Notes under the pieces: generated by a model
Database searches by the model: none
The model's input: the letters and a program-made list of their open reading frames with translations, nothing else
What the model was told of the DNA's origin: nothing
NCBI GenBank assembly: GCA_963668185.1
Contig: OY764162.1
Span: forward strand, 2,660,478 to 2,724,477
DNA from: Dehalococcoidia bacterium
GTDB taxonomy: Bacteria; Chloroflexota; Dehalococcoidia; Lucifugimonadales; G963668185
DNA length: 64,000 bases
Direction: 5' to 3'
Shown: positions 2,341 to 37,071 of the stretch, piece after piece
How the letters are laid out: every line of letters begins with the position of its first letter
Numbering within the stretch: the stretch's first letter is position 1
Translations under genes and position numbers: made by a program

Positions 2341-2754
2341 TTACGTGTCACTAGATGGGGCGCCGGCCTGGCGGATGCGCTCGGCTGCCTGGAGCAGCGC
2401 GGCGAGGCCGCTTCGCAGCTTGTCTGGATCAACGGGCACGGGAGCGATTTCGCCGGACTGGGCGAGTTCCAGTATGTTCGCGGCGACGCCGGACTCGCGG
2501 CCTGCGGTGCGGGACTGCATGATGATGAGGTTGGTCATCGTTTCCTTGAGTTCCTCGATGGGGCTGTCTTCGCCGGCCCTTGGGAGGGCGGTCTGCAGGC
2601 CGGTCAGCAGGCCGAGGCGCATCTCGCCGAGGTCCGTCAGCAGGCGGACGAGGCGGGCCAGCACCTCGGCGCGCAGGACGTAGCGGCCGTCTTCTTCGGT
2701 TCCGGCGGCGGACAGGAAGCTATCGACTACGGACTCGTTATGGCTTGTGGTCAC
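2341..2754 (-). CDS. Hypothetical helical protein
   Basis: ORF with genome-like codon usage; start placed at GTG 2754 behind AAGGAG (the ATG at 2781 comes from a repeat hairpin). Confidence 0.6.
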   Translation of the reverse strand: MTTSHNESVVDSFLSAAGTEEDGRYVLRAEVLARLVRLLTDLGEMRLGLLTGLQTALPRAGEDSPIEELKETMTNLIIMQSRTAGRESGVAANILELAQSGEIAPVPVDPDKLRSGLAALLQAAERIRQAGAPSSDT

Positions 2755-2771
2755 GGTGTTGCTCCTTGGGG

Positions 2772-3092
2772 TTCCGTTCATGGTTCGACAGGCTCGCCAC
2801 GAACGGAACGGAGCGCTGGCTCGCCACGAACGGTCCGGGCAACATAACAGACTCGCTCTAAGGCGTCTCTCATTGACAGTCCTAGATTCTTCGCTGCGCT
2901 AGGAATGACAGTGGGCCGCGAGCGCCTGCCCTGTGGCGGGGGGGCCTCGGTGTAGGGGCCGTTCGCAAAGAGCCTGCCCCGAGTCCCTCGAGGGGGCCGC
3001 GCGCGCCCACTGCCATTCCGAGTCCCCCGAGAGCCTGCCCAGATCCCCTCTAGTCCCTTCCCCAGTCTGCTGGGGAAGGTTAGGATGGGGTC
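2772..3092. repeat. Composite cluster of four palindromic repeat families
   Basis: CCGTTCATGGTTCGACAGGCTCGCCACGAACGG type; reversed GTCATTCC type (about 2880-2915); GTAG hairpin at 2952 carrying a 24-bp insert; CCCTTCCCCAGTCTGCTGGGGAAGG type at about 3056. Confidence 0.85.
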
Positions 3093-3136
3093 TCCGGCGC
3101 ACGAGCACGCAAGCGCCGCCCACGAGGAGGCCCCGC

Positions 3137-5074: not shown

Positions 5075-5087
5075 GCAGGAGACACCC

Positions 5088-6653
5088 ATGGCAACTTACG
5101 ACACCATCGTCATCGGCGCGGGCTCCGCCGGCGCCATCATCGCCGCGCGGCTGTCCGAGGACGCAGGCCGCTCCGTGCTCCTCATCGAGGCCGGCCCGGA
5201 CCACCCCGACTTCGAGACCATCCCCAGCCACATCAAGTACGGCTACGGCCATGAAGAGCGGGCGTGGGCCAAGATTCTCGGCCCCGGCTCTGAGCACAAC
5301 TGGCGCTACACCGCCAGGTCCACCGACCTTGCCGAGCCTATGCCCGTGCCCAGGGGGAAGGCCACCGGAGGCTCCAGCGCCGTCAACGCCCAGATCTTCC
5401 TGCGCGGCGTGCCGGAGGACTACGACTCCTGGGCCGAGATGGGCAACGACGAATGGAGCTTCCGCGACCTCCTGCCCTACTTCCGCATGAACGAGACGGA
5501 CCTGGACTTCCGGGACGACTTCCACGGCGCGGACGGCCCGATCATCGCCAGGCGCTTCCCGGAAGACGAGTGGACCTACGACCAAACCGCCTTCTACAGG
5601 GCCTGCCTCGCCGCCGGCTACCGGGACTGCCCCGACCACAACGACCCCGACTCCACCGGCGTCGGCCCGTCCCCGTTCAACAACCCCAACGGCGTCCGAT
5701 GGAGCACCGCGATCGGGTACCTTGGCCCCGCGCGGCACCGCGTTAACCTGACGATCCGCCCCGAATGCTTCGTGCACGGCCTGATCGTCGAAGGCAACAG
5801 GGCCGTCGGCGCACGGGTGGAGAGCGGCGGCGAGCTGTTCGAGGTCCACGGCAACGAGATCGTCCTCAGCGCCGGCGCAATCGGCTCTCCCCACCTTCTC
5901 CTATTGTCCGGCGTCGGCCCGGCCGCCAACCTCGAGTCCGCCGGCGTCCCGGTCGTCCGCGATCTGCCCGGCGTAGGCCGCAACCTCCGCGACCACCCGC
6001 AGGTGTCGGTGCTGTGGAAGACGAAGGACGATTACAGGATGGACGCGGCCGGGCCCTATATCCAGCAGATTCTGCGTTACACCGCCGAAGGCTCGCACCT
6101 GCGAAACGACATGCTGATCATCGCGCTGTCGGCGGCCACTCGCGCTCAATACTTCGCCGACGATTTGGAACCTTTCGGCATCGGCATGATCTGCTCCCTG
6201 TACCTCGCTGCGGGAGCGGGACGCCTCGAACTTGCCTCGCCAGACCCGCACACGCAGCCCATGCTCGACTACAACTTCCTCGAAGAGGAGTTCGACCGCC
6301 GCCGCCTGCGCGAGGCGGTACGCATCTGCCTGGACCTCGCCCAACACGACGAAATCGCCGGCATAATCGAGGAGCGTTTCCAGCCCACAGACGCGGACCT
6401 GGAGTCGGACGACGCGCTCGACGAGTGGCTGCTGCGCCAGGCCACCACAAGCCACCACGTCTCCGGCACCTGCAAGATGGGGCCCGCCTCCGACCCCCTG
6501 GCCGTAGTCGATCAGCGCGGCAACGTCCACGGCATCGAAAACCTGCGCGTCGCCGACGCCTCCATCATGCCGGACTGCATCCGGGCCAACACTAACGTAA
6601 CATCCATGGTCATCGGCGAACGCATCGCCGACTGCATCCGGCAGGGCAAGTAG
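5088..6653 (+). CDS. GMC family oxidoreductase (choline dehydrogenase-like)
   Basis: GAGSAG FAD motif, PRGKATGGSSAVN, GVGRNLRDHP, HVSGTCKMG, LRVADASIMP. Confidence 0.93.
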   Translation: MATYDTIVIGAGSAGAIIAARLSEDAGRSVLLIEAGPDHPDFETIPSHIKYGYGHEERAWAKILGPGSEHNWRYTARSTDLAEPMPVPRGKATGGSSAVNAQIFLRGVPEDYDSWAEMGNDEWSFRDLLPYFRMNETDLDFRDDFHGADGPIIARRFPEDEWTYDQTAFYRACLAAGYRDCPDHNDPDSTGVGPSPFNNPNGVRWSTAIGYLGPARHRVNLTIRPECFVHGLIVEGNRAVGARVESGGELFEVHGNEIVLSAGAIGSPHLLLLSGVGPAANLESAGVPVVRDLPGVGRNLRDHPQVSVLWKTKDDYRMDAAGPYIQQILRYTAEGSHLRNDMLIIALSAATRAQYFADDLEPFGIGMICSLYLAAGAGRLELASPDPHTQPMLDYNFLEEEFDRRRLREAVRICLDLAQHDEIAGIIEERFQPTDADLESDDALDEWLLRQATTSHHVSGTCKMGPASDPLAVVDQRGNVHGIENLRVADASIMPDCIRANTNVTSMVIGERIADCIRQGK

Positions 6654-6662
6654 CTCCGCCCC

Positions 6663-6691
6663 TTGACATAACCGAACAGGTGCACTACCAT
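6663..6691 (+). promoter_or_regulatory. Sigma70-type promoter upstream of the lipoprotein array
   Basis: TTGACA (6663-6668), 17-bp spacer, TACCAT (6686-6691); ATG at 6698. Confidence 0.5.
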
Positions 6692-6894
6692 GAACTCATG
6701 TTCACAAGAAGCGGCCTCCATCACAACGCAGAATCCGGACCCGCAACCGCCGCGCGTTCCGTTTCGTTCGCGGTGAGCCTATGCAGTCCGTTCGTGGTGA
6801 GCCTGTCGAGCCATGAGCGAGCCGCGCGGCGCATGAGCTATGTCCTTACCCGGCCGGGACGCCTGCATCAGGCCAGTCGAGGGCCGCGCGTTCG

Positions 6895-7020
6895 GTGTCT
6901 CATAATTGTCTCATTTCGTCTCAGATCTGCTTCATTTCTGCCTCAAAAGCGTCTCAAAGCCGTCTCATCGCCACAGCCTCCCAGATACGGAATGAGACGA
7001 TATGAGACAAAATGAGACAC
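6895..7020. repeat. Helically phased GTCTCA array facing an inverted TGAGAC array
   Basis: GTCTCA or variants at 6897, 6908, 6918, 6929, 6940, 6951, 6962; TGAGAC at 6993, 7003, 7013. Confidence 0.85.
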
Positions 7021-7045
7021 TTCTTCGGGAGTTCAACGTCTCCGC

Positions 7046-7247
7046 CCTCACTGTCATTTCGAGTCCCTCGAGGAATCTAGGACGCCCCGCACTCCACCAA
7101 CGGCTTTCCTGGCGGCAAGCCACGCATTCGGCCAGGACAGGACGCATTCGGCAACGGCGCGTTTTGGATTCCCTTCGAGGGACTCAGGGCAGGCTCTCTC
7201 TCGATTCGCTCGATCGGAATGACAGGAGACGCGAGACAACAGCAATG
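7046..7247. repeat. About 200-bp REP-doublet-like leader, copy 1
   Basis: Bounded by CTGTCATTTCGAG and GGAATGACAG; closely similar to 11107-11306; ends at a lipoprotein start codon. Confidence 0.85.
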
Positions 7248-9134
7248 ACACATCGCGGCTACGTAGCGAGGTTACTATGTCTCTATCTGCCGACCCTCGT
7301 GTCCTGTGTGCTGTTGGCCGTTGTGTCCGCGTGCGGCACGGGCGACAGTGCGGTTTCTGGCGTCGAAACACCGGATCCTACAGCTACGGTTGAGATTGAG
7401 GACAACGCTGCGGTGGTCGGGGACATGATCATCCTCACGCCCACGGTTGAAGTTGAGGACGACAGCGACAGCGCGGCTTCCGGCGTTACGCCTGTCCCCA
7501 CACCGACGGCTGAGAACATATATCAACCTGTGAACGACGTCAGCGCGTTCGCAAGCGACACACCGACGGCTGAGGCCGATTCTTCGGCGGGGTATGACGT
7601 ATACATCAGCGGTGAATGGCTTGTGCCGCCCTCGCTGGATGAGCAGATCTTCATGTCGGACACGATCGTGCGGGCGACGCTGAAGTCTGCGACTTCGACG
7701 ACGGTGACTGCCCCAAGCGAGGGCGATGGATCGGTGTCATACCTGTCCGTGCATGAGTTGCGGTTCACGGTCCATGAGTACCTGAAGGGCAGTGGCCCAT
7801 CCGAAATACTAGTGGTTGCGCGGGGTGGCGACTATGGTAACGAAGCGTACGCGACGGTTGCGAAGGCGCGCGAGGCGGCGGACTGGACCATGTCACAACG
7901 AACCACGACGTGGGATGATCGCCAGGGAGTGCTCTTCCTGATGACGCTTGATGGTAGGGCGTTTTGGGACGGTACGCCAAGCCCGTACCATACCCAGTAT
8001 GTTCCGACCACTCCCGGGGGCGGCTCGGCATCATCAGCGACGACCACAGCGTTTGCGATATACACGGGCGCTCCTTACGAAGAGTGGTGGGTCTACACTG
8101 TCGATACGCTCAGCCGCGGGTGGCTGCCTATGGGATCTGCTCCGGCGGGCGGCAGCCCCGACAACGCGTCGGGAGCGGCCAGCGTATCGTTCATCGAGGA
8201 CGGTTCGAAGACACCGTATTCTACGGTCACGCTGGGGGAGATTCGCACCAAGATAACCGAGATGGCGGCCACACTGAAGGCGGGGGAGGGTATCGCCAGA
8301 TACCGTGAGTGCGTTCATCATAAGATTGGGCGGGAGCGGATGCGCCGGGCATACCCATGGACGCCGAAACAGTACGAGGCGACGCTGGCCTCCGGTTTGG
8401 CCGCAGGAACAGAAGCGTACAGAAGAAGAGATGGGGGTGAGCCAAAGCACCCGCTCTTCTACGTAACCGGCACGGACAAAGACTACTTTCAGGCCCCCAT
8501 CGTCGATGAGGACTCAGACCCGTACAACGGGTTCTTTCGCACGCTTTCCACCACGCGGCCACTGCTCGCAGGGACGTACAGCGTCAAGCATAACGTACAG
8601 GATTACGGGCAGGTACCCTGCAACTTCAAGCCGGACGATGCGTACTCTGAGTGGACAGTGACGGTCACCGCCCCCTCCGGCACGGTGCACGAGGCGTTCT
8701 TCGACCCGGCGTCCACGTTCCTGGGCGTCGGCGCGAGCGGGGGCGCGGGCGTGATCTCTCCCGCGTCGTTCAACGTCGGCGGCGCGACCACCACGATCAC
8801 GCGGATAGTAGTGTCGTTTGGCAGCATGGTCTCCATGCAGATATCGCCGTCCGTGTCGCTGTCCGGCAAGCACGTCGAGTTCATCAAGGTGGACGGCACA
8901 GTGGCCGCGAGGCTCTCGTTCGATAAGGGGGACCTTGGCGGCGGCATCGGCATCGACGGGGCCGGCGCAGGCAACGGCACCAGCACAGCGGAGTCGGCGG
9001 TGTCGGCGCAAGCGCAAGCGCAGATAGCCGCCGCGCTGGCCGAGGCGCAGGCCACGGGAAGCAAGATGTACTTCTGGTTCGTATCCAGCGCCCCGTGGAA
9101 GGCGGGGGACAAGCTGATGCTGCGCATACGGTAG
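7245..9134 (+). CDS. Lipoprotein of unknown function, paralog P1
   Basis: Signal peptide with lipobox VSAC; T/P/D/E-rich stalk; conserved SLDEQI, HELRF and HEAFFDP motifs and C-terminal WKAGDKLMLRIR. Confidence 0.85.
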   Translation: MTHRGYVARLLCLYLPTLVSCVLLAVVSACGTGDSAVSGVETPDPTATVEIEDNAAVVGDMIILTPTVEVEDDSDSAASGVTPVPTPTAENIYQPVNDVSAFASDTPTAEADSSAGYDVYISGEWLVPPSLDEQIFMSDTIVRATLKSATSTTVTAPSEGDGSVSYLSVHELRFTVHEYLKGSGPSEILVVARGGDYGNEAYATVAKAREAADWTMSQRTTTWDDRQGVLFLMTLDGRAFWDGTPSPYHTQYVPTTPGGGSASSATTTAFAIYTGAPYEEWWVYTVDTLSRGWLPMGSAPAGGSPDNASGAASVSFIEDGSKTPYSTVTLGEIRTKITEMAATLKAGEGIARYRECVHHKIGRERMRRAYPWTPKQYEATLASGLAAGTEAYRRRDGGEPKHPLFYVTGTDKDYFQAPIVDEDSDPYNGFFRTLSTTRPLLAGTYSVKHNVQDYGQVPCNFKPDDAYSEWTVTVTAPSGTVHEAFFDPASTFLGVGASGGAGVISPASFNVGGATTTITRIVVSFGSMVSMQISPSVSLSGKHVEFIKVDGTVAARLSFDKGDLGGGIGIDGAGAGNGTSTAESAVSAQAQAQIAAALAEAQATGSKMYFWFVSSAPWKAGDKLMLRIR

Positions 9135-28267: not shown

Positions 28268-29299
28268 ATGGTTACTCAAATCATCGCCAATAGGGTTTAC
28301 GACTACAGTCACGCCATTGGCGGCAGGGACATGATGAAGCCGTACAGCCTCGCATTGGCGTCGGGCAACGTTCTGTACCTGGTGAATCGCCTCATCTCCG
28401 GCCTGGCGCAGGTCCGCGCGGGGGCCGGAATCCCTACACAGATCAAGAAGATCGACACAGGCGCCGCTCCGGGGCAGGAGGAACTTCTGGCGGAGTTCGG
28501 CGTCATGGGCGAAGGCGAAGACCAGGTCTATTGGCCGTCCGGCATCGCCTGCGACAGCGCCGGCAACGTGTACGTCGCCGACGAGTGGCGGAACCGCATC
28601 GCCGTGTTTGACGGTGACGGACGTTTCCTCCGCGCGTGGGGAGAGCAGGGGAGTGGCGAAGGCCAGATCCTCGGCCCGTCCGGCCTGCAGTTCGACGTCG
28701 ACGACAACCTGTACGTCGTCGATGGCCGCAACCACCGCGTCCAGAAGTTCACCGGCGGCGGCGAGCGCATCGGCGGCTGGGGATCGCAGGGCTCCGGCCC
28801 CGGGCAGTTCGACTCGCCCTGGGGCCTGACCATCGACCATAACGGCGATGTGTACGTCGCCGACCACAAGAACAACCGCGTCCAGAAATTCACGCCCGAA
28901 GGCGAGTACCTGATGGAGTTCGGCAGCTACGGCGAAAAAGTGGGCGAGTTGAACCGCCCCACAGATGTCGCCGTCGACCCGGACGGAGACGTCTACGTTT
29001 GCGACTGGGCCAACAACCGCGTCAACGCATACGACAGCGCCGGCGCGCCCATCACCACGTTCGTAGGCGACGCCGCCGAGCTATCGAAGTGGCAGCAGCA
29101 GTTCGTCGACTCCAACGAAGGCGAGAAGCTGGCTAGGCGAAGGGCAGTGGACAAAGAAATCGGCTGGCGTCTCGCCATGCCCACCGCCGTCGAGTTCCAC
29201 CCCGCCAATAACTGGCTCATCATCTCAGACTACCAGCGCGGCCGCTTCCAGATCTACGCCAAGCTAAGCGACTACGACGAACCTCAGTTCAACCTGTAA
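28268..29299 (+). CDS. NHL-repeat beta-propeller protein
   Basis: Repeated F/W..P.GIA.D..GNVYVAD..NHRVQKF units. Confidence 0.9.
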   Translation: MVTQIIANRVYDYSHAIGGRDMMKPYSLALASGNVLYLVNRLISGLAQVRAGAGIPTQIKKIDTGAAPGQEELLAEFGVMGEGEDQVYWPSGIACDSAGNVYVADEWRNRIAVFDGDGRFLRAWGEQGSGEGQILGPSGLQFDVDDNLYVVDGRNHRVQKFTGGGERIGGWGSQGSGPGQFDSPWGLTIDHNGDVYVADHKNNRVQKFTPEGEYLMEFGSYGEKVGELNRPTDVAVDPDGDVYVCDWANNRVNAYDSAGAPITTFVGDAAELSKWQQQFVDSNEGEKLARRRAVDKEIGWRLAMPTAVEFHPANNWLIISDYQRGRFQIYAKLSDYDEPQFNL

Positions 29300-29324
29300 G
29301 AGGTAAGAGGGGACGCCCGCATCA

Positions 29325-29698
29325 CTACGCCTCGGACGTGCCGTCCGTCCCGGCCAGCGCTAGAACGCCGTTCACGAAATCGTGCACAATCGCGCGGTCG
29401 TCCAAGATCTCGAACTCCTCCATGAAGTCGTGGTAGAAGTTGCGGTGAAACTTTTCCGCGGCGGCAAATCCGCCTCGTAGCGCTGGGTCGCCGGACTGGT
29501 CCGCAAGTTGCCGCACTGCCGTTTTCAGTGAGCGGTGACTTCCATCAGGCCATCCGTTGTTTTGTGCCGCTGCCATGACAGCATGAGAAGCGGCGCCCCA
29601 TAGCTTCTCGCAGGCTTGCAGCCGGTCTCCGACGCTGAATTCCTTGTCGGAGTCCCTCAAGAACGTTCTGGCGGTCTGGATATGCTCGACTGCGTTCA
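29325..29698 (-). CDS. PaREP1-family (HEPN-like) protein, copy 1
   Basis: QACEKLWGAASHA and AEKFHRNFYH motifs; start placed at MNAVEH. Confidence 0.75.
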
Positions 29699-29760
29699 TG
29701 GGATCAGGCCCCTCCATTTTCTTGCCTAAGCCAACACAGTTCATCTCTTGGCTTGGATTA

Positions 29761-29830
29761 TACCAAGCGCGGCCGCTTCCAAATCTACGCCAATCTAAGC
29801 GACTACGACGAACCCCAGTTCAACCTGTAG
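29761..29830 (+). pseudogene. Duplicated 3-prime stub of the NHL gene
   Basis: Near copy of 29231-29299 (RGRFQIYAxLSDYDEPQFNL stop) with a few substitutions and one indel. Confidence 0.85.
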
Positions 29831-29839
29831 CGCCCACCT

Positions 29840-30934
29840 TTACTCGATTACGTGCACCGGCTCGCCGACCACGTCCTCGCGCAGCGTCAGGCCCAGCCCC
29901 GGCGCGTCCGATGCCGTGATGTTCGGGCCGTCCCTCTCAGGAAAGCCGTCGGCCGTTTTCAGAGTCACGTAGTCCGTGAGGTCCGTGTAGCAGATCAGGT
30001 ACTTCGGGTCCGTGCTCGCCGCGAAGTGCAGCAGCGCGGAAGACACGATCTCGCTGCCCCAGGAGTCGTCCGGCACCACACTGATGCCCAGGTCCAGCGC
30101 AAGGTCTCGCATCTTCCTCGCCTTCGTCAGTCCGCCGACGCGCGCCACCTTGATCGCGATCATGTCCATCGCGCCAGCCTCGTACCCGCGAATGATGTCC
30201 TGCGGCGTCTCGATCAGTTCGTCCAGCTTCACCGGGAGCGGACACCGTCGCCGGAAGTCGATGCTCTCCTCCCACGTCAGGCACGGCTGCTCCATGATCA
30301 CCGGCAGGTCGCGAATCGCGTTCGCCACCGTGATCGCCTCCGTCAGTGTGTACCGGGTGTTCCCGTCCAGCAGCAGGATCTCGTCTGGGTTGAGAATGTC
30401 ACACACGGCCTCGATCGCTGGTATGTCCTGCTTGGGACTTCGGCCCACCTTCTGCTGGAACGCCCGGAAGCCCTCCGCCCGCTTCTCGAGACATGCGTCA
30501 ACAATCTCTTCCGTCGTCACCGGATACTCCGGCGGGAAGTAGATAGAGCGATACAGCGGCGCCTGCCCCTCGTACCGTCCGCCCAGCAGATCGCACACCG
30601 GCCGCCCCGTAGCCTGCCCCATGATGTCCCACAGCGCCATGTCCAGCGGCGACTTCACGTACAGGTCATGGCTGAAGAAGGCGTCCCACTTGCGGTTGAG
30701 CCGCTCGTAGTGGAACGGGTCCTCCCCGATGAGGTGTTCTGCGATTATCGGAATGCCCGCGATCGCCCCTTCCGCGAATCCGCGCATGTAATTCGCGTTG
30801 ATGGTGCACACCTCGCCGAGGCCGACGTGACCTTCGTCAGTTTCCATCTTCACGATTACCGTCCGACTCCCCCGCGAGGAGTTTTCCTTGAACGGCAGGA
30901 TTGCCGTATAGACCGATATCCTGGTTATCTTCAT
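29840..30934 (-). CDS. Mandelate racemase/muconate lactonizing enzyme family protein
   Basis: Q-x-K motif (FQQKVG), metal ligands in LDGN, MEQP and LDEL, AIKVARVGG; resembles the hydroxyproline/proline-betaine epimerase-dehydratase branch. Confidence 0.85.
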   Translation of the reverse strand: MKITRISVYTAILPFKENSSRGSRTVIVKMETDEGHVGLGEVCTINANYMRGFAEGAIAGIPIIAEHLIGEDPFHYERLNRKWDAFFSHDLYVKSPLDMALWDIMGQATGRPVCDLLGGRYEGQAPLYRSIYFPPEYPVTTEEIVDACLEKRAEGFRAFQQKVGRSPKQDIPAIEAVCDILNPDEILLLDGNTRYTLTEAITVANAIRDLPVIMEQPCLTWEESIDFRRRCPLPVKLDELIETPQDIIRGYEAGAMDMIAIKVARVGGLTKARKMRDLALDLGISVVPDDSWGSEIVSSALLHFAASTDPKYLICYTDLTDYVTLKTADGFPERDGPNITASDAPGLGLTLREDVVGEPVHVIE

Positions 30935-30944
30935 AAGTTGATCC

Positions 30945-32624
30945 TCACGCCAGCATGTACCGCCGGTTGAGCGGCACTTCCGTCACGGCCTGCGACGTTA
31001 CCGCCTCGCCGTCCACCGTCACCACTCGCTCCTTCGAGTCCACGCGCACCGCCGGGTAGCGCCGGTTGCGGACCATGTCATCGCGCGTCACGCCTCGAAC
31101 GCCGCGCACGGCCAGCAGCCTCCGCGCCGTCCGCAAACGCCGCGCCAACCCAAGCCCCAGCGACGCCTCCGACACGAACAACGCGCTCAGCGACGGCGCG
31201 GCCTCGCCCGACCCGCCGAACTGCGGCCCGTACGCCACCGGCTCCGCTCCGCCAACGCTAGCATTGCCCTCGCCCAGCGGCGCCCACGCGGTGAAGCCGC
31301 CCTTGATTACCTGCTCCGGCTTGATGCCGAAGAACTCCGGTCGCCACAGCACAATGTCCGCCATCTTGCCCGCCGCTATCGACCCCACGTAGTCCGATAT
31401 CCCGTGCGCGATTGCCGGGTTGATCGTGTACTTGGCGATGTACCGCAACACCCGCTCGTTGTCGTGCGCGTCCCTGTTCTCGTCCGCCTCCGCCTTCATC
31501 TTGTGTGCAAGCTGCCACGTCCGGCAGATCACCTCGCCGATGCGTCCCATCCCCTGCGAGTCCGAGTTGATGATCGGGATCGCCCCCATGTCGTGCAGCG
31601 CGTCCTCCGCCGCCATCGTCTCGCGCCGCAGCCTGTCGTCCAGCGCCGCCGCTTCCGCCGGGTCGTGCCTCCGCACGCCGTGGATGAGCGCCGTCATCGC
31701 GAAGTGCTCCCCGTGCGCGCCCACCGTGTACGGTATCGTTGGCGTCGTCGACGATGGGACGATGTTCCGCACGCCCGCCAGTTCCAGCACGTCCGGCGCG
31801 TGCCCGCCGCCCGCGCCCTCCACGTGGTACGCGTGCACGGTCCGACCGGCGATCGCGTCCACCGTCTCGTCCACGCGCGCCGACTCCTGCAGGCCGTCCG
31901 TGTGCAGCGCGACAGACACGTCGTGCGCGTCCGCAACCTTCAGGCACGCGTCGATCACGTCCGGGTACGCGCCCGTGTCCTCGTGCACCTTGAACCCGCA
32001 GGCCCCCGCCTCCAGGCTCTCTAGCATCGGCGCAGGATGCGTCGCGCTGCCCAGCCCTTGCAGCCCCACGTTGACCGGCATCCGCTCCAATGCCTCGAAC
32101 GTCCTGTGGATCTTGAACTGCGCGTTCTGCGACAGCCCGCCCCCTATCAGCGTGGTCATCCCGCTCGACACCGCCACCGGAATGAGCTTCGGCGTCACCA
32201 GGTGCACGTGGCTGTCCACGCCGCCCGGCGTCGCGATGAGTCCCGCGCCGAACCGGACCAGCGTGTTCGTCCCGATCTCCAGGTCCACGCCGTCCATGAT
32301 GTTCGGATTGCCGGCCCTGCCCACGCCCGTAATCAGCCCGTCCTTTATCCCGATGTCGCCCTTCATCACGCCCAGCAGCGGATCGATGATCAAGACGCCC
32401 GGGATCACGGTGTCGAGTTCGCTGTCGCCCGGCCTGCCGTGCCCCATCATCATCCCGGCCCGCACGTTCTTCCCCCAGCCGTACACAAGCTCGTTCCCGT
32501 ACTCCGCCAGATCCCGCTCCACCTCCACGATCAGGTTCGTATCGCCCAAACGCACCCTGTCCCCGGTCGTAGGGCCGTACTCCCGCGCATAGGTCTCTCT
32601 GTCGATCTCGTGAGCCAGCGTCAC
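30945..32624 (-). CDS. ureC: Urease alpha subunit, divergent
   Basis: DSHVH, FKVHED, LHTD, HAYHVEGAGGGHAPD, NSDSQGMGRIGEV. Confidence 0.88.
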   Translation of the reverse strand: MTLAHEIDRETYAREYGPTTGDRVRLGDTNLIVEVERDLAEYGNELVYGWGKNVRAGMMMGHGRPGDSELDTVIPGVLIIDPLLGVMKGDIGIKDGLITGVGRAGNPNIMDGVDLEIGTNTLVRFGAGLIATPGGVDSHVHLVTPKLIPVAVSSGMTTLIGGGLSQNAQFKIHRTFEALERMPVNVGLQGLGSATHPAPMLESLEAGACGFKVHEDTGAYPDVIDACLKVADAHDVSVALHTDGLQESARVDETVDAIAGRTVHAYHVEGAGGGHAPDVLELAGVRNIVPSSTTPTIPYTVGAHGEHFAMTALIHGVRRHDPAEAAALDDRLRRETMAAEDALHDMGAIPIINSDSQGMGRIGEVICRTWQLAHKMKAEADENRDAHDNERVLRYIAKYTINPAIAHGISDYVGSIAAGKMADIVLWRPEFFGIKPEQVIKGGFTAWAPLGEGNASVGGAEPVAYGPQFGGSGEAAPSLSALFVSEASLGLGLARRLRTARRLLAVRGVRGVTRDDMVRNRRYPAVRVDSKERVVTVDGEAVTSQAVTEVPLNRRYMLA

Positions 32625-32639
32625 TCCTCCTTCCTTTGG

Positions 32640-32678
32640 CCCCTTCTCCCCTACGCGGGAGAAGGCCGGGATGAGGGG
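32640..32678 (+). repeat. Hairpin repeat variant overlapping the ureB 3-prime end
   Basis: CCCCTTCTCCC-CTACGC-GGGAGAAGG-CCGGGATGAGGGG, same layout as the CCCTTCCCCAG family. Confidence 0.7.
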
Positions 32679-33049
32679 GAAACGTCCTCGTGCAGAAACC
32701 CCGCCTCTATCGCCCGCTCCACCGCAGCATCAGCGTCCGCCTCATCGAGCGCTCCGTTAACAAGCCCGTGGAACCCGTGCACGCGCCGCGCCCCGCCGAC
32801 ATCCACCAGCCGCACCCGCTTCCGCTCGCCAGGCTCCCAGCGAACAGCCGCACCCGCCGGTACATCGAGCCGCCTGCCGTACGCCGCTCTGCGGTCGAAC
32901 CGCAGCAGCCGGTTCGCCTCGAAGAAGTGGTAATGCGAAGTCACCGAAACCGCGTGTCCGGACGTGTTCTCCACCTCGATCGACACCGCCTCGCGCCCCG
33001 CGTTGCACAGGACCGTGCCCTCTCTGGTGAACACCTCTCCAGGCCTCAT
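32651..33049 (-). CDS. ureB: Urease beta subunit
   Basis: NAGRE, SHYHFFEAN, AYGRRLDVPAG.AVRWEPG, HGFHGLVNG. Confidence 0.9.
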   Translation of the reverse strand: MRPGEVFTREGTVLCNAGREAVSIEVENTSGHAVSVTSHYHFFEANRLLRFDRRAAYGRRLDVPAGAAVRWEPGERKRVRLVDVGGARRVHGFHGLVNGALDEADADAAVERAIEAGFLHEDVSPSSRPSPA

Positions 33050-33053
33050 GCCC

Positions 33054-33419
33054 TCATCCTTCCTGAGCTATGGAGAGAATCTTTTCGATGAAGTCCTCCA
33101 CCGATGGACGGGAGAACTGCAACTCTTCAAGTTCCATGAAACCGTGATAGAAGTTGGCGTGAAACTTCTCCGCGACGGCGAATCCGTCCCGTATGGAGTT
33201 GTCGCCGTATTCGATGCTGAGATCCCCCGCCGCCTTGCGCAGGGTGGCGTGAGTCCCGCACGGCCAGCCGCGCTGCCTGGCGACGGTTATCAGGGCCTGT
33301 GAAGCGGCGCCCCAGAGCTTCTCAGAACCCTGCATGTACTCTCCCACGGAAAACTCATGGTTCGCCCTTTCCAGAAATTCCCGCGCAGTTTCCGCGTGCT
33401 GCTCTACAGACATCACCAT
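33054..33419 (-). CDS. PaREP1-family (HEPN-like) protein, copy 2
   Basis: QGSEKLWGAASQA and AEKFHANFYH motifs; lies between ureA and ureB. Confidence 0.75.
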   Translation of the reverse strand: MVMSVEQHAETAREFLERANHEFSVGEYMQGSEKLWGAASQALITVARQRGWPCGTHATLRKAAGDLSIEYGDNSIRDGFAVAEKFHANFYHGFMELEELQFSRPSVEDFIEKILSIAQEG

Positions 33420-33440
33420 GATATGCCCCCTCGCTTTGCA

Positions 33441-33743
33441 CTACCGGATCGGATTGTCGATCACCACCAGCTTGTTCCCATCCGCGAAGTTCACCTCCAG
33501 CCGGATGCTGCTCACAAGCGACTCCACCCCATCCATCACGTCGTCCTTGGAAAGAATGCCCACCCCGCGCGTCTCGATCTCCTCGTAGCTCAGGCCCGCT
33601 CGCCCGTCCTCCAGCAGTTCGTCGCTGATAAGCGCCACCGCCTCAGGGTGGTTCAGCTTCAATCCCCGCGCTCTCCGACGACGCGCCATCTCCGCCACCG
33701 TGAAAATCGTAAGCCGGTCCATCTCCTTCGGCGTCAGCCGCAT
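33441..33743 (-). CDS. ureA: Urease gamma subunit
   Basis: MRLTPKEMDRL, ARGLKLNHPEAVALI, EVNFADGNKLV...NPI. Confidence 0.92.
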   Translation of the reverse strand: MRLTPKEMDRLTIFTVAEMARRRRARGLKLNHPEAVALISDELLEDGRAGLSYEEIETRGVGILSKDDVMDGVESLVSSIRLEVNFADGNKLVVIDNPIR

Positions 33744-33781
33744 CTGTCGCTCCTTGCGCCTGGATTCCGGGCGAACCTGCC

Positions 33782-33811
33782 TTGACTCCCCCGAATAGGA
33801 GGAGATACAAT
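33782..33811 (+). promoter_or_regulatory. Sigma70-type promoter
   Basis: TTGACT (33782-33787), 18-bp spacer, TACAAT (33806-33811). Confidence 0.5.
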
Positions 33812-33906
33812 CCTCTCAGGAATATTCCCTAGTGTCCGTCTTCAGGGGCGCACTCTAGGTTAGTATATCCACTGTAAAGCGGGGCGTTCGCAAGAGCGCC
33901 CCGCTT

Positions 33907-34350
33907 CTCCTTAGGACCTATTATTACCACTGCCTGCCGTATCACGGCAATCCTCCCACGGAGGACGAGCGCAAACGGTATTCGACGCAGAGAAGGTTCT
34001 TTGACTCCTTGGAGCGCCTACCCCGCTACAAGGTCAGACTGGGTCGGCTTGCGCGCCGCGTTGGCAAAGATGGAAGGCCGAGGTACTCGCAGAAGCGAGT
34101 CGACATCCTGCTGGGCGTGGACATGGTGCAGCTAGCTGCCAAGCAGGCGATTCAAGAAGCGGTGTTGCTGGCTGGAGACAGCGATTTCATCCCCGCCGTC
34201 GCCGCGGCCCAGTCCGAGGGCGTGGTGATCAGGCTGTTTCACGGACGACGCCCGCACAACGACCTGTGGCAAGTGGCTGACGAGAGGACTCAGATCACTC
34301 AAGACTTGATACAGTCGGTCTTGCTGGATCTCGCAACTTCGCAGGACTGA
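33907..34350 (+). pseudogene. 5-prime-truncated NYN/LabA (DUF88) nuclease
   Basis: Frame reads LLRTYYYHCLPY...QKRVDILLGVD...LAGDSDFIPAV; in-frame TAG at 33856 and no upstream FIDG motif or start codon. Confidence 0.7.
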
Positions 34351-34356
34351 GCGCCC

Positions 34357-35376
34357 CTACACATCCGCCACCAGCACCCACATCGGCGCCGCGCCCGCCG
34401 CGTACGTCTCCACGTGCGCGAGGCCGCCCGTATCCTGGTCGATCTCGTACACCGCTAGGTTCCCCGACTCCAGCCCCGACGCGTACAGGAAGCGCCCGTC
34501 CGGGTCCAGGCTGAACGCTCGCGGCACCGGCTCCGTCGGCACGATCGCCGTGCGCGTCAGCTGCCCCCAGTGCTCGTCCACCGCGAAGCACGCGATGCTG
34601 TTGTGGCCCCGGTTCGGCGCATACAGGAACCTGCCAGTGGACGCGATCTGTATCTGTGCGCACGTATTCTCGCCCTGATATCCGCGCGGCAGCGTCGATA
34701 CCGTACGCATGGGACTGAGCAACCCGTCGTAGATGCTCATCTCGTACGAGGTCACGCTGCTCCCCTGCTCGTTCGAGAAGTAGAACACGTTCATTCGCGG
34801 ATGGATGCAGAAGTGCCTCGGCCCCGCGTTCGGTTCAGGGGACAACTCCGGCTGAGTGTTCGGCGTCAGCCGCCCGGACTCCTGGTCGAACCCGTACTGC
34901 AATATCAGGTTCGGCCCAACGTCCCCCGCGATGTGCGGCACGAACGCGTACTGGTTAGCTGGGTCGGTCTGGATCGAGTGCGCCCCCTCGTACGTCTCGA
35001 TCTGCTGCACCGGCTCGGCCCCGCCTTCGCCGTCCAGCCGGTGCACCGTGACCATCCCCGCGAAGTAGTACGCGCCCATCAGGAACCGGCCTCGCTGGTC
35101 CGTCGCCAGGTAGCACGGGTCCGACGGCAACTCAATCGTGCCCACCGGCGTGAGACCCCCGCTCGCCGCGTCGATCCTATAGCTCGCCAGCCTGTTGTTC
35201 CCGCGCAGCCCCGCGTAGAGAAACTCCCGCCGCGGGTCGATGGCCAGCGGTGCCGGCCCGTCATTCGCGGCGGTGTCTCCGATCTTTGTCAGTCTCCCCG
35301 AGCCGCGGTCCGCCTCGTACGCCGCGATCCGGTTCTCGTCTTGAAGGGCCACGTAAACAAGTCTTGCCATGCCCAT
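34357..35376 (-). CDS. Lactonase-family beta-propeller (6-phosphogluconolactonase-like)
   Basis: PCYLATD, GAHSIQTDP, GPRHF, FLYAPNRGHNSIA, PRAFSLDP. Confidence 0.9.
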   Translation of the reverse strand: MGMARLVYVALQDENRIAAYEADRGSGRLTKIGDTAANDGPAPLAIDPRREFLYAGLRGNNRLASYRIDAASGGLTPVGTIELPSDPCYLATDQRGRFLMGAYYFAGMVTVHRLDGEGGAEPVQQIETYEGAHSIQTDPANQYAFVPHIAGDVGPNLILQYGFDQESGRLTPNTQPELSPEPNAGPRHFCIHPRMNVFYFSNEQGSSVTSYEMSIYDGLLSPMRTVSTLPRGYQGENTCAQIQIASTGRFLYAPNRGHNSIACFAVDEHWGQLTRTAIVPTEPVPRAFSLDPDGRFLYASGLESGNLAVYEIDQDTGGLAHVETYAAGAAPMWVLVADV

Positions 35377-35463
35377 TGCCTCCGGTATCTGTCGATTTAT
35401 TGCCGCCGGTCATTGTATGTTATCGGCTGAGCCGCGCCCTGCGGCAACCCATGGAGGTAGGCC

Positions 35464-37071
35464 ATGTCAGCCACCGTATCGTTCGAACCGCTCAGCCCGC
35501 TGTCGCTCCTGGAGAGAAGCGCCGCCGTTTACCCGGACAAGACCGCCATCGTCCACGGCGACAGACGTTACACGTACGCCCAGTTCCACGAGCGCGTCTG
35601 CCGCCTGTCGTCCGCTCTCAGGAAAGCCGGGGTAGGGAAGGGCGATCGCGTCGCCTTCCTCGTCCCCAACCTTCCCGCCATGCTCGAAGGCCACTTCGGC
35701 CCCCTGCGCGCGGGCGCGATCCTCGTCGCCATCAACATCCGCCTGTCCGCCCGCGAGATCGCGTACATCATCAACCACTCCGGCGCGAAGGTACTCGTGT
35801 TCGACACCGAGTTCGCTCCTGTCGTCCGCCAGGTCCGCCCCGACGTTCCCGGCGTAGACCTGTTCGTGCACGTCAACGATGGCGCTGGCATGGCGGACGA
35901 TATCCCCGGCCCCGACTACGAGTCGTTCCTGGCGTCCGGCTCGCCCTCGGACCCGAAAGTCCCGCTCGACTCGGAACTGGACACCATCGCGATCAACTAC
36001 ACGTCCGGCACCACAGGAATGCCCAAGGGCGTCATGTACCACGCCAGGGGCGCGTACCTCGCCGCCATCAGCGAGGCGCTGGAGATGGGCATAACATGGC
36101 GCAGCACATACCTCTGGACGCTGCCCATGTTCCACTGCAACGGCTGGTGCTTCACGTGGGGCGTGGCCGCCGTTGCCGGCACGAACGTCTGCCTGCGCCG
36201 CATCGACCCGGACTCGATCTTCGACCTCATCGAGTCCGAAGGCGTCACCCACATGTGCGGCGCACCGACGGTCCTTACCATGATGTACTCCTCGCCGTCC
36301 GCGGAGGGCCGCGATCTGTCCGGCCTCTTCATAGTCACCGCCGGCGCGCCTCCCGCCCCCCACGTCATCCGCACCATCGAGGGTATGGGCGCGACCATAC
36401 AGCACGCATACGGCCTTACCGAGACGTACGGCCCGCACACGCTCTGCGCCGACCAGCCCGGCTGGGACGAGCTTTCCGTCGACGAGCGCGCGAGGCTCAA
36501 GTCGCGGCAGGGCGTGCCATACCTGATGGCCGACCCCGGCCTGCGCGTGGTTGACAGCCACATGAACGACGTCCCGAAGGACGCCGAGACCATGGGCGAG
36601 GTCATCATGCGCGGCAACAACGTCATGTCCGGCTACTTCGACGACGCCTCCGCCTCCGAGAAGGCGTTCGAAGGCGGCTGGTTCCACTCCGGCGACCTCG
36701 GCGTCTGGCACCCCGACGGCTACATCGAGCTGAGGGACAGGGCAAAGGACGTCATAATCTCAGGCGGCGAGAACATCTCCACCCAGGAGGTCGAACGCGT
36801 CGTCATGGACCACCCCGCCGTCCTCGAGGTAAGCGTCGTCGGCGTCCCCGACGATCGGTGGGGCGAGACCCCCAAGGCGTTCGTCGTCAAGAAGCCCGAC
36901 GCCGAAGTGACCGAGCAGGACATCATCGACTTCTGCCGCGCCAACCTCGCCCGCTTCAAAGCCCCCAGGTACGTCGAGTTCGGCGATCTCCCCAAGACCG
37001 CCACCGGCAAGATCCAGAAGTTCGTCCTACGCGAACGCGAATGGGCCGGCCGCGAAAAACGCATCCAGTAA
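35464..37071 (+). CDS. Acyl-CoA synthetase/AMP-binding ligase
   Basis: YTSGTTGMPKG, YGLTET, GWFHSGD, DRAKDVIISGGEN, PKTATGKIQK. Confidence 0.93.
   Translation: MSATVSFEPLSPLSLLERSAAVYPDKTAIVHGDRRYTYAQFHERVCRLSSALRKAGVGKGDRVAFLVPNLPAMLEGHFGPLRAGAILVAINIRLSAREIAYIINHSGAKVLVFDTEFAPVVRQVRPDVPGVDLFVHVNDGAGMADDIPGPDYESFLASGSPSDPKVPLDSELDTIAINYTSGTTGMPKGVMYHARGAYLAAISEALEMGITWRSTYLWTLPMFHCNGWCFTWGVAAVAGTNVCLRRIDPDSIFDLIESEGVTHMCGAPTVLTMMYSSPSAEGRDLSGLFIVTAGAPPAPHVIRTIEGMGATIQHAYGLTETYGPHTLCADQPGWDELSVDERARLKSRQGVPYLMADPGLRVVDSHMNDVPKDAETMGEVIMRGNNVMSGYFDDASASEKAFEGGWFHSGDLGVWHPDGYIELRDRAKDVIISGGENISTQEVERVVMDHPAVLEVSVVGVPDDRWGETPKAFVVKKPDAEVTEQDIIDFCRANLARFKAPRYVEFGDLPKTATGKIQKFVLREREWAGREKRIQ

What the first reader, a model, noticed from the sequence alone, without database searches (positions are those of the whole stretch)
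30945..32624. Urease alpha subunit with intact metal ligands but remodelled substrate pocket and flap
The HxH, carbamylated Lys (FKVHED), two His and Asp (SDSQ) ligands are all present. Against canonical urease recalled from memory (Klebsiella type): (1) the GGG-to-PVN segment is 19 aa (LSQNAQFKIHRTFEALERM) instead of about 29, losing the GTGPxxGTxATTxTPG loop that carries a substrate-contacting Ala; (2) the flap MLMVCHHL becomes MTALIHGV, losing the Cys and second His; (3) SDSQAMGR becomes SDSQGMGR. Inference: a larger pocket and a substrate other than urea, i.e. a possibly undescribed urease-fold amidohydrolase.
Basis: partly seen in the sequence, partly recalled or inferred. Interest (0 to 1): 0.72.

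Follow-up and report, generated by a model that had tools for sequence, protein, structure and literature searches.

The report
Chaperone-free, short-loop urease-like enzyme
This gene encodes the catalytic subunit of an intact urease-type enzyme from a large, unstudied branch of the family that has lost a pocket loop and all nickel-chaperone genes, so it may split substituted ureas rather than plain urea, although that has not been shown.

Summary
On the minus strand, 30945-32624 encodes a 559-aa UreC-like protein. It keeps all six metal ligands and the catalytic His, Asp and Arg. It lacks 10 residues of the loop that carries the urea-binding Ala, has the flap MTALIHGV, and reads SDSQGMGR.

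These are clade traits, not a one-off. At least 595 species genomes carry the two sequence motifs that mark this type (Dehalococcoidia, Actinomycetota, Rokubacteria and others). The short-loop proteins form a clade (SH-aLRT 99-100) separate from the canonical ureases sampled, and no solved urease shows the deletion.

The enzyme lacks the usual urease support genes:
- The 97%-complete genome has no ureD, ureF, ureG, UrtA or NiCoT.
- 76 of 79 other carrier genomes lack ureG.
- The three exceptions also hold a second, canonical ureC.

In an actinobacterial subclade, 15 of 79 loci hold an agmatine-deiminase-family gene inside the operon. That enzyme type makes N-carbamoyl amines.

My best reading (0.5) is a self-activating ureido-amidohydrolase acting on a substituted urea. 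The main rival (0.35) is a true, chaperone-free urease that salvages urea made by the genome's agmatinases. No substrate was tested. I found no paper describing this clade.

The parts
33441..33743 (-). ureA-like gene (gamma subunit, 100 aa), first gene of the operon
   Evidence: Pfam Urease_gamma 122 bits. NCBIfam NF009712 125.4 bits, above the cut-off of 123. An AGGAG ribosome-binding site precedes the ATG.
33054..33419 (-). PaREP1-family gene inserted between ureA and ureB (121 aa)
   Evidence: Pfam PaREP1 54.6 bits. It is absent from this position in the three same-genus genomes. About 16 paralogous loci occur in the genome.
32651..33049 (-). ureB-like gene (beta subunit, 132 aa; the last ~10 aa are specific to this genome)
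   Evidence: Pfam Urease_beta 126.6 bits. In congeners UreB ends at ...FLHKED/REE/KEK, about 10 aa earlier.
32642..32665 (-). 24-nt hairpin-forming sequence spanning the ureB stop codon and the start of the ureB-ureC spacer
   Evidence: CCTTCTCCC-GCGTA-GGGGAGAAGG, seen. Its first part encodes the C-terminal extension of UreB. The equivalent stretch is absent in congeners.
30945..32624 (-). ureC-like gene: catalytic alpha subunit, 559 aa (the finding)
   Evidence: Pfam Urease_alpha plus Amidohydro_1. NF009686 subfamily 733.6 bits (cut-off 354). TIGR01792 equivalog 663.8 bits, below the cut-off of 680. AlphaFold2 model pTM 0.86. Foldseek TM 0.88-0.90 to ureases at 43-48% identity.
32079..32135 (-). 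Shortened loop and helix after the GGG strand (residues 164-182, LSQNAQFKIHRTFEALERM); site of the 10-aa deletion
   Evidence: In the model, strand 156-161 is followed by helix 169-178.
31674..31697 (-). Active-site flap segment MTALIHGV (residues 310-317); the catalytic His315 is kept
31542..31565 (-). SDSQGMGR: metal-ligand Asp355 with the clade-wide Ala->Gly358 change
29840..30934 (-). Enolase-superfamily (MR/MLE) gene starting 10 nt after the ureC stop; probably co-transcribed; linked to ureC at genus level only
   Evidence: Pfam MR_MLE_N and MR_MLE_C. The best NCBIfam match is cis-3-hydroxy-L-proline dehydratase, 323 bits, below the cut-off of 500. The closest solved chain is 4mgg. Synteny is kept in G001 and G003; in G002 the copy next to ureC survives only as a fragment, with a fuller, interrupted copy about 4 kb away. 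No recurrent enolase gene was found in other families.
29325..29744 (-). Second PaREP1-family gene at the end of the gene run
   Evidence: Pfam PaREP1 53.5 bits. 48% identical to the copy between ureA and ureB.
34357..35376 (-). 7-bladed lactonase-family gene upstream of ureA (genus-level synteny; about 600 nt gap, so probably a separate transcript)
   Evidence: Pfam Lactonase 247.8 bits. Synteny shown.

Best explanation
UreC-like, together with the UreA-like and UreB-like subunits, forms an active urease-fold hydrolase. A carbamylated Lys212 bridges two metal ions held by His139, His141, His241, His267 and Asp355. The bridging hydroxide attacks the carbonyl of a ureido group that is polarised by His214. 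Flap His315 and Arg331 assist departure of the nitrogen leaving group, which leaves carbamate to decay to CO2 and NH3.

The enzyme belongs to a distinct, widespread short-loop clade with three properties:
- It matures without UreD, UreF or UreG, so the metal centre assembles by itself. The metal is unknown.
- It has lost the loop carrying one of the two backbone carbonyls that clamp the urea NH2, and the other is changed to Gly.
- Its flap varies between subclades.

I infer that the physiological substrate is a mono-N-substituted urea (an N-carbamoyl amine or N-carbamoyl amino acid) rather than free urea, or in addition to it, with specificity differing between subclades. In this genus the co-operonic enolase-superfamily gene resembles enzymes that act on proline derivatives. 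That hints weakly at an N-carbamoyl amino or imino acid.

Shown: the fold, the ligands, the separate clade, the absence of accessory genes and the purifying selection. Inferred: self-activation, a widened pocket and a non-urea substrate.
For: - Intact ligands and catalytic residues, invariant across 38 clade members. dN/dS is 0.07-0.10.
- A separate clade: SH-aLRT 100 for 31 rows and 99 for 91 rows.
- The deletion removes the stretch that holds K. aerogenes Ala167 / S. pasteurii Ala170, and Ala363/366 is Gly358. The role of both carbonyls in binding the urea nitrogen is described in PMC7433671.
- The flap is conserved within subclades but differs between them: MTAxxH, MMWSVHGMN, MILAVHGGS, MKLIVHEGN.
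- The own genome is one contig, 96.6% complete, with no ureG, ureD or ureF, no UrtA equivalog and no NiCoT.
- None of 79 related loci has UreD/F/G within 8 kb. 76 of 79 of those genomes lack UreG anywhere.
- The three genomes with UreG also have a second ureC that scores like a canonical one. It lies on the UreG contig in two of them. The two types therefore coexist.
- A same-order genome has a canonical 572-aa ureC with ureF, ureG and ureD, urea-type ABC transporter genes and glnA.
- In the actinobacterial subclade, 15 of 79 loci hold a PAD_porph (agmatine-deiminase-family) gene inside the operon in at least three different gene orders. That enzyme type produces N-carbamoyl amines.
Against: - Nothing here measures a substrate or a pocket volume.
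- All residues known to be needed for urea hydrolysis are retained (K. aerogenes His219, Asp221, His320, Arg336, Gly277, Met364). Another backbone carbonyl could replace the lost Ala.
- The own genome has no PAD_porph gene. The deiminase link therefore concerns a subclade only 51-54% identical to this protein.
- No neighbour other than ureA and ureB is conserved across the Dehalococcoidia subclade.
- The genome encodes two agmatinase-equivalog enzymes, which release urea, and has no urea carboxylase. A urea-salvaging urease would make physiological sense.
- Bacillus subtilis has an active urease without accessory genes (from my own knowledge).
- The PAD-family proteins score below the agmatine deiminase equivalog cut-off (295-326 against 381.8 bits), so their product is not established.
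Confidence: 0.5

Rival explanations
1. It is a genuine urease (urea amidohydrolase) of a divergent lineage that activates without UreD/F/G, with nickel or another metal. It recovers nitrogen from urea made inside the cell or diffusing in.
For: - All metal ligands and catalytic residues are kept.
- All three subunit types are kept.
- The score lies just below the urease equivalog cut-off (663.8 against 680).
- The genome has two agmatinase equivalogs and a third arginase-family gene, which release urea. It has no urea carboxylase, so this would be its only route to urea nitrogen.
- Precedents exist for ureases without chaperones: Bacillus subtilis, and the iron urease UreA2B2 of Helicobacter mustelae (PDB 3qga appears among the hits; the functional facts are from my own knowledge).
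Against: - The urea-clamping loop, which is full-length in every canonical urease compared here, is deleted, and the flap is remodelled.
- The flap differs between subclades, which is unexpected if all bind the same small substrate.
- The short-loop type coexists with a canonical urease and its chaperones in three genomes.
- There is no UrtA equivalog.
- Sister-clade operons contain a deiminase-family gene whose expected product is a substituted urea.
- The iron urease 3qga aligns over 13 more residues than the query, so it shows no such deletion.
Confidence: 0.35
2. It hydrolyses a different class of small carbonyl-nitrogen or imino-nitrogen compound, not a ureido compound. Candidates are formamide or another short amide, a carbamate ester, or guanidine.
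For: The pocket is remodelled. Canonical ureases already show weak activity on formamide, acetamide and hydroxyurea (from my own knowledge). Amidase-signature genes lie directly after ureC in L069, L078, L081 and L088.
Against: The residues that polarise a urea-type carbonyl and protonate a nitrogen leaving group are all kept. No context gene points specifically to these compounds. No guanidine riboswitch or any other Rfam element was found in the window or in five PAD-linked loci.
Confidence: 0.1
3. It is a non-catalytic or decaying urease remnant left after loss of the accessory genes.
For: There are no accessory genes. A PaREP1-family gene is inserted within the operon. Urease-alpha homologues that lack the HxH motif exist in public data.
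Against: - dN/dS is 0.07-0.10.
- All ligands are invariant across phyla.
- All three subunit genes are intact, with ribosome-binding sites before ureA and ureC.
- The clade is kept in at least 595 species genomes.
Confidence: 0.03

Closest known systems
Canonical nickel urease alpha subunit (UreC of Klebsiella aerogenes and Sporosarcina pasteurii; jack bean urease; EC 3.5.1.5)
   Same: The same two-domain fold (TM 0.88-0.90 at 43-48% identity). The same six metal ligands, including the carbamylated Lys. The same catalytic His, Asp and Arg. The same gamma and beta partner subunits.
   Different: A 10-aa deletion of the GTGPxxGTxATTxTPG loop that holds Ala167/170. Ala363/366 is Gly. The flap is MTALIHGV instead of MLMVCHHL. 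HIH is HVH, and HTDT is HTDG. There are no UreD/E/F/G genes and no urea transporter. The protein falls in a separate clade.
Ureases that work without accessory proteins: Bacillus subtilis UreABC and the iron urease UreA2B2 of Helicobacter mustelae (PDB 3qga)
   Same: Structural genes without dedicated maturation genes. Self-assembly of the metal centre is therefore plausible.
   Different: 3qga aligns over 564 residues against 551 of the query, so it shows no such deletion. That both enzymes are urea-specific is from my own knowledge. I did not examine the B. subtilis sequence here.
Streptomyces coelicolor SCO5525-SCO5526 and the S. avermitilis 'ure(AB)C-only' clusters
   Same: Urease structural genes alone, without accessory genes, alongside a second complete urease cluster in the same genome (PMC2492869). 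This resembles the actinobacterial subclade with fused ureAB seen here.
   Different: Whether these proteins belong to the short-loop clade was not tested, because no Streptomyces sequence was available. Their function is uncharacterised as far as I could find.
N-carbamoylputrescine amidohydrolases (the CN-hydrolase AguB/NCPAH and the amidase-signature type described in 2025)
   Same: They catalyse the reaction proposed for the deiminase-linked sister subclade: hydrolysis of an N-carbamoyl amine made by agmatine deiminase (PMC12283126).
   Different: Unrelated folds and mechanisms. That paper does not list a urease-fold enzyme among the known routes. The own genome has no agmatine-deiminase-family gene.
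Cyclic amidohydrolases of the same superfamily (hydantoinase/dihydropyrimidinase, allantoinase)
   Same: A TIM-barrel fold. These enzymes have a binuclear centre bridged by a carbamylated Lys and act on ureido groups (from my own knowledge).
   Different: Only distantly related (E 5.5e-4 by sequence, TM 0.43-0.49). They lack the gamma and beta subunits and the urease N-terminal domain.

Membership tests
Urease alpha subunit (UreC, EC 3.5.1.5; TIGR01792 equivalog) | Urease_alpha N-terminal domain plus an amidohydrolase TIM barrel | tested here: met
   PF00449 143 bits and PF01979 178 bits. Foldseek TM 0.88-0.90 to solved ureases.
Urease alpha subunit (UreC, EC 3.5.1.5; TIGR01792 equivalog) | Score at or above the curated equivalog cut-off | tested here: not met
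   TIGR01792 663.8 bits against a cut-off of 680. Other equivalogs score 592-637 against cut-offs of 907-1083. Only the subfamily model NF009686 passes (733.6 against 354).
Urease alpha subunit (UreC, EC 3.5.1.5; TIGR01792 equivalog) | Six metal ligands: HxH, carbamylated Lys, two His, Asp | tested here: met
   His139, His141, Lys212, His241, His267 and Asp355, all invariant in 38 clade members.
Urease alpha subunit (UreC, EC 3.5.1.5; TIGR01792 equivalog) | Catalytic and substrate residues (K. aerogenes His219, Asp221, His320, Arg336) | tested here: met
   His214, Asp216, His315 and Arg331.
Urease alpha subunit (UreC, EC 3.5.1.5; TIGR01792 equivalog) | Conserved loop GGGTGPxxGTxATTxTPG supplying the Ala167/170 carbonyl, and Ala363/366 | tested here: not met
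   Ten residues including the ATT Ala are missing, and Ala363/366 is Gly358. Their role is described in PMC7433671.
Urease alpha subunit (UreC, EC 3.5.1.5; TIGR01792 equivalog) | Flap motif MLMVCHHL | tested here: not met
   The flap reads MTALIHGV; only the Met and the catalytic His are kept.
Urease alpha subunit (UreC, EC 3.5.1.5; TIGR01792 equivalog) | Gamma and beta partner subunits encoded alongside | tested here: met
   ureA-like at 33441-33743 and ureB-like at 32651-33049. These are the only genes linked to ureC across the 79 loci.
Urease alpha subunit (UreC, EC 3.5.1.5; TIGR01792 equivalog) | Maturation by UreD/UreF/UreG | tested here: not met
   None in the own genome. None within 8 kb in any of 79 loci. 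UreG is absent from 76 of 79 carrier genomes.
Urease alpha subunit (UreC, EC 3.5.1.5; TIGR01792 equivalog) | Hydrolysis of urea; nickel in the active site | not testable with these tools
   This needs enzyme assays and metal analysis.
Short-loop, accessory-free urease-like clade (defined here) | A 10-11-aa deletion after the GGG/AG strand, plus YH[VI]EGxGGGH and [IV]NSDSQGM | tested here: met
   The query falls in the Dehalococcoidia subclade (19 rows, SH-aLRT 100) of the 91-row clade.
N-carbamoyl-amine amidohydrolase acting after an agmatine-deiminase-family enzyme (proposed for the actinobacterial subclade) | A PAD_porph gene in the same operon or genome | tested here: not met
   tblastn with seven PAD_porph query sequences finds nothing in the own genome. 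The link is seen only in 15 actinobacterial-subclade loci.

The most novel reading that the evidence does not exclude
The whole short-loop clade is not a set of ureases. It would be a family of chaperone-free ureido-amidohydrolases with subclade-specific substrates, present in at least 595 species genomes, most of them uncultured Chloroflexota, Actinomycetota, Rokubacteria/Methylomirabilota, Nitrospirota and Planctomycetota. In the deiminase-linked actinobacterial operons it would be an N-carbamoyl-amine (for example N-carbamoylputrescine) hydrolase, giving a further, urease-fold route from agmatine-type guanidines to amines. In this Dehalococcoidia genus it would act on an N-carbamoyl amino or imino acid processed together with the neighbouring enolase-superfamily enzyme. 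'ureC' annotations in these lineages would then not indicate urea use.
Probability: 0.4. Interest if true: 0.8.

Novelty: new variant of a known kind. Interest (0 to 1): 0.62.

Why it matters
Urease is a textbook enzyme: it has one accepted substrate, an almost invariant active site, and an obligatory nickel-chaperone system. This gene belongs to a branch found in hundreds of species that breaks all three expectations, yet every source name retrieved here calls its members 'urease subunit alpha'.

If the branch hydrolyses substituted ureas, three things follow:
- It would add new reactions to the urease fold, possibly including a further route in polyamine or guanidine catabolism.
- It would provide a natural model for how a binuclear carbamyl-lysine centre assembles without chaperones.
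- Surveys that use ureC as a marker would overestimate urea utilisation by soil and deep-ocean Chloroflexota, Actinomycetota and Rokubacteria.

If the proteins turn out to be true ureases, they would still form a large natural group of chaperone-independent ureases. That is of interest for metal biology and for expressing urease in other hosts.

Tried and rejected
- **Literature.** Six full-text searches and reads of four papers found no description of this clade or of a urease/agmatine-deiminase operon. The ure(AB)C-only clusters of Streptomyces are mentioned in PMC2492869, but I could not place them in the tree.
- **Conserved neighbours in the Dehalococcoidia subclade.** Apart from ureA and ureB, nothing recurs beyond lineage-level synteny. 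A COG1228-type amidohydrolase lies 4-6 kb away in 7 of 22 loci, which is too loose to use.
- **The enolase-superfamily neighbour as a family-wide partner.** Rejected. It is linked only within the genus.
- **Riboswitches or other RNA elements.** None in the window or in five deiminase-linked loci.
- **Promoter and terminator scan of 29000-35600.** Nothing on the minus strand.
- **Naming a cultured carrier.** A second homologue search, starting from an actinobacterial member, returned only metagenomic proteins.
- **Pocket volume.** Model coordinates are not exposed, so the 'larger pocket' claim rests on sequence alone.
- **Wider context of the deiminase-linked locus L074.** Not informative. ureA-ureB-ureC-PAD looks like a self-contained four-gene unit.
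- **The hairpin at the ureB stop / ureB-ureC junction as a dispersed repeat.** One copy in the window, and two approximate matches (up to 4 mismatches) elsewhere on the searched strand of the genome.
Full report
**What is there.** The ORF at 30945-32624 lies on the minus strand. It has a GTG start behind a GGAGGA ribosome-binding site and encodes 559 aa. It carries the urease alpha N-terminal domain and the amidohydrolase barrel. It passes NCBI's urease-alpha subfamily model (733.6 bits against a cut-off of 354). It falls just below the TIGR01792 equivalog cut-off (663.8 against 680) and far below the other equivalog cut-offs.

- The spacer between GGG and PVN is 19 aa instead of 29.
- The flap reads MTALIHGV instead of MLMVCHHL.
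- SDSQAMGR is SDSQGMGR.

Numbering relative to K. aerogenes urease is +5 before the gap and -5 after it, for every motif:

| This protein | K. aerogenes | Role |
|---|---|---|
| His139, His141 | His134, His136 | metal ligands |
| Lys212 | Lys217 | carbamylated bridging ligand |
| His214 | His219 | substrate binding |
| Asp216 | Asp221 | active site |
| His241 | His246 | metal ligand |
| His267 | His272 | metal ligand |
| Ile314 | Cys319 | flap |
| His315 | His320 | catalytic flap His |
| Gly316 | His321 | flap |
| Arg331 | Arg336 | active site |
| Asp355 | Asp360 | metal ligand |
| Gly358 | Ala363 | urea-binding carbonyl |
| Met359 | Met364 | pocket |

The catalytic flap His is therefore kept. 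The His that is lost is the neighbouring, non-catalytic one.

The deleted stretch contains the 'ATT' Ala (K. aerogenes Ala167, S. pasteurii Ala170). This assignment comes from counting along the K. aerogenes sequence as I remember it, anchored on the numbering map above. According to the structure-based review of Mazzei, Musiani and Ciurli (PMC7433671), the backbone carbonyls of Ala170 and Ala366 hold the Ni(2)-bound urea nitrogen, and Ala366 with Gly280 holds the distal nitrogen. Here one of these residues is deleted and the other is Gly.

The AlphaFold2 model (pTM 0.86, mean pLDDT 77.8) has strand 156-161 followed directly by helix 169-178. It matches solved ureases with TM 0.88-0.90.

**Operon.** On the minus strand the order is:
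- ureA-like (33441-33743)
- a PaREP1-family gene (33054-33419)
- ureB-like (32651-33049)
- ureC-like (30945-32624)
- an enolase-superfamily gene starting 10 nt after the ureC stop (29840-30934)
- a second PaREP1-family gene (29325-29744)

. The order lactonase, ureA, ureB, ureC, enolase-superfamily gene, NHL, DUF1800 is kept in two of the three same-genus genomes. In the third, the enolase-superfamily gene next to ureC survives only as a fragment. None of the three has the PaREP1 gene between ureA and ureB. Within the genus, ureC has dN/dS of 0.07-0.10, so it is a working gene.

**A clade, not an oddity.** Nearly all of the best 120 homologues in the 5.8-billion-protein collection share the short spacer and SDSQGMGR; one reads SDSQGFGR and one lacks the motif. 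The best 80 hits are all metagenome-assembled genomes. They are labelled Dehalococcoidia (which includes this genome's closest relatives), other Chloroflexota, Rokubacteria/Methylomirabilota, Nitrospiraceae, Planctomycetota, many Actinomycetota, and Dormibacterota.

In maximum-likelihood trees the short-loop proteins form one clade apart from canonical ureases. This clade includes a small group with a 4-5-aa deletion. Support is SH-aLRT 100 for 31 rows and 99 for 91 rows. Three large subclades each have support of 100:
- Dehalococcoidia (19 rows, including the query)
- a Rokubacteria/Nitrospirota/Planctomycetota group (9 rows)
- an Actinomycetota/Limnocylindria group (50 rows)

The flap is conserved within each subclade but differs between them, while the catalytic His and the Arg336 equivalent never change. 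Five further positions next to metal ligands are fixed differently from the three canonical sequences: Ile->Val140, Thr->Gly244, Asn->Thr294, Ser->Asn353 and Ala->Gly358. Every solved urease aligns over 10-15 more residues than the query, so no member of this clade has a solved structure.

**No maturation machinery.**
- The own genome is one contig of 2.78 Mb, 96.6% complete. It has a single urease alpha gene. It has no match to ureG (the model also detects HypB-type GTPases in control genomes), ureD or ureF.
- It has no UrtA equivalog; the best score is 56.9 bits against a cut-off of 492.75. It has no NiCoT permease.
- tblastn with UreD, UreF and UreG from a canonical locus found nothing within 8 kb of ureC in any of 79 related loci.
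- Genome-wide, UreG is absent from 76 of the 79 genomes.
- The three genomes that do have UreG each have two urease alpha genes. One scores like a canonical enzyme (178-194 bits on PF00449), and in two genomes it lies on the UreG contig. The other scores like the short-loop type (133-147 bits) and lies elsewhere.
- As a contrast, a genome of the same order carries a 572-aa canonical ureC followed by ureF, ureG and ureD, with urea-type ABC transporter genes and glnA beside it.

The chaperones therefore travel with the canonical enzyme, never with this one, and the two types can coexist.

**Context clues to the substrate.** Across the 79 loci only ureA and ureB (or a fused ureAB) are consistently linked to ureC. 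In the actinobacterial subclade, 15 loci hold a PAD_porph gene inside the operon. It scores 346 bits on Pfam (one representative) and 295-326 bits on the agmatine deiminase equivalog (three representatives), below the cut-off of 381.8. It occurs in four gene orders:
- PAD-ureA-(ureB)-ureC
- ureAB-PAD-ureC
- ureA-ureB-ureC-PAD
- PAD-ureAB-ureC

These arrangements fall in several sub-lineages. Enzymes of that family convert a guanidino group into a ureido group, as in agmatine to N-carbamoylputrescine. The natural next step is hydrolysis of a mono-substituted urea.

Amidase-signature genes directly follow ureC in four loci, and Opp/Dpp-type ABC transporter genes are frequent nearby. That note is a lead, not independent support.

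The link does not extend to this genome. It has no PAD_porph gene, and in the Dehalococcoidia subclade the neighbours vary: PhyH, gamma-glutamyltranspeptidase with an MFS transporter, DUF1989, and a loosely linked amidohydrolase.

The only local hint is the probably co-transcribed enolase-superfamily gene. Its best family match is cis-3-hydroxy-L-proline dehydratase (323 bits, below the cut-off of 500). Its closest solved relatives are 4mgg, 2rdx, 2pmq, 4h2h and 4e8g. From my own knowledge, several of these act on hydroxyproline or proline betaines. This is a weak, genus-level hint that the substrate is an amino- or imino-acid derivative.

**The case for an ordinary function.** Nothing needed for urea hydrolysis is missing except the Ala170 loop, and another carbonyl might take its place. 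The genome encodes three arginase-family proteins. Two of them pass the agmatinase equivalog cut-off, so urea is produced inside the cell. There is no urea carboxylase. This enzyme would therefore be the cell's only way to recover that nitrogen. Ureases without chaperones have precedents (from my own knowledge): B. subtilis, and the iron urease of H. mustelae, which aligns over 13 more residues than the query.

**Verdict.**
- High confidence: this is an intact, selected catalytic subunit of a three-subunit urease-fold metallohydrolase. It belongs to a large, distinct clade that lacks accessory genes and is uncharacterised as far as I could find.
- About 0.5: its physiological substrate is a substituted urea.
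- About 0.35: it is a self-activating true urease.
- About 0.1: it acts on another small amide, carbamate or guanidine.
- About 0.03: it is inactive.

I found no publication on the clade.

Noticed in passing
window 33054-33419 and 29325-29744 (minus strand): Two PaREP1-family genes, 48% identical to each other, lie inside and at the end of the ureABC-enolase gene run. The one between ureA and ureB is absent at that position in all three same-genus genomes. About 16 paralogous loci occur in the genome. They look like small genes that insert repeatedly without breaking operons.
   Followed up: partly
window 32642-32665: A 24-nt hairpin-forming sequence (CCTTCTCCC-GCGTA-GGGGAGAAGG) spans the ureB stop codon, and UreB is about 10 aa longer than in congeners. 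In congeners the ureB stop comes earlier and the ureC start follows closely. This suggests a small insertion that was absorbed into the reading frame.
   Followed up: partly
L053, L059, L061, L065, L071, L072, L074, L075, L076, L084, L087, L089, L095, L099, L101 (near position 8000 in the full-length loci): Short-loop urease operons, mostly from Actinomycetota, contain an agmatine-deiminase-family (PAD_porph) gene in four different gene orders. This suggests a two-step pathway from guanidine to ureido compound to amine that uses a urease-fold enzyme.
   Followed up: partly
L036 7317-9683 and 15257-17623: One Dehalococcoidia genome carries two tandem copies of the short-loop ureABC unit about 8 kb apart.
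   Followed up: no
proteins P0141, P0148, P0152, P0161, P0163, P0165, P0171, P0184: Full-length urease-alpha homologues in public data lack the HxH motif, and most lack further ligand motifs as well. They group together in one tree (SH-aLRT 84), but two of them nest among the canonical rows in the other. They may be non-catalytic urease-like proteins.
   Followed up: no
L069, L078, L081, L088 (directly after ureC): An amidase-signature gene (NF005686 500 bits, above the cut-off of 465) follows ureC in one actinobacterial sub-lineage. In two of these loci (L069, L088) Opp/Dpp-type ABC transporter genes lie a few kb downstream.
   Followed up: partly
L020 (genome G002) 2574-7320: In one same-genus genome only a 114-aa fragment of the enolase-superfamily gene remains next to ureC. 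A fuller copy, itself interrupted into two pieces, lies about 4 kb away. This points to a local rearrangement.
   Followed up: no
own genome C1:1796137-1803672: Two agmatinase-equivalog genes lie within 7 kb of each other, and a third, divergent arginase-family gene lies at 1898961-1899791. That is several ureohydrolases for a 2.8-Mb genome.
   Followed up: partly
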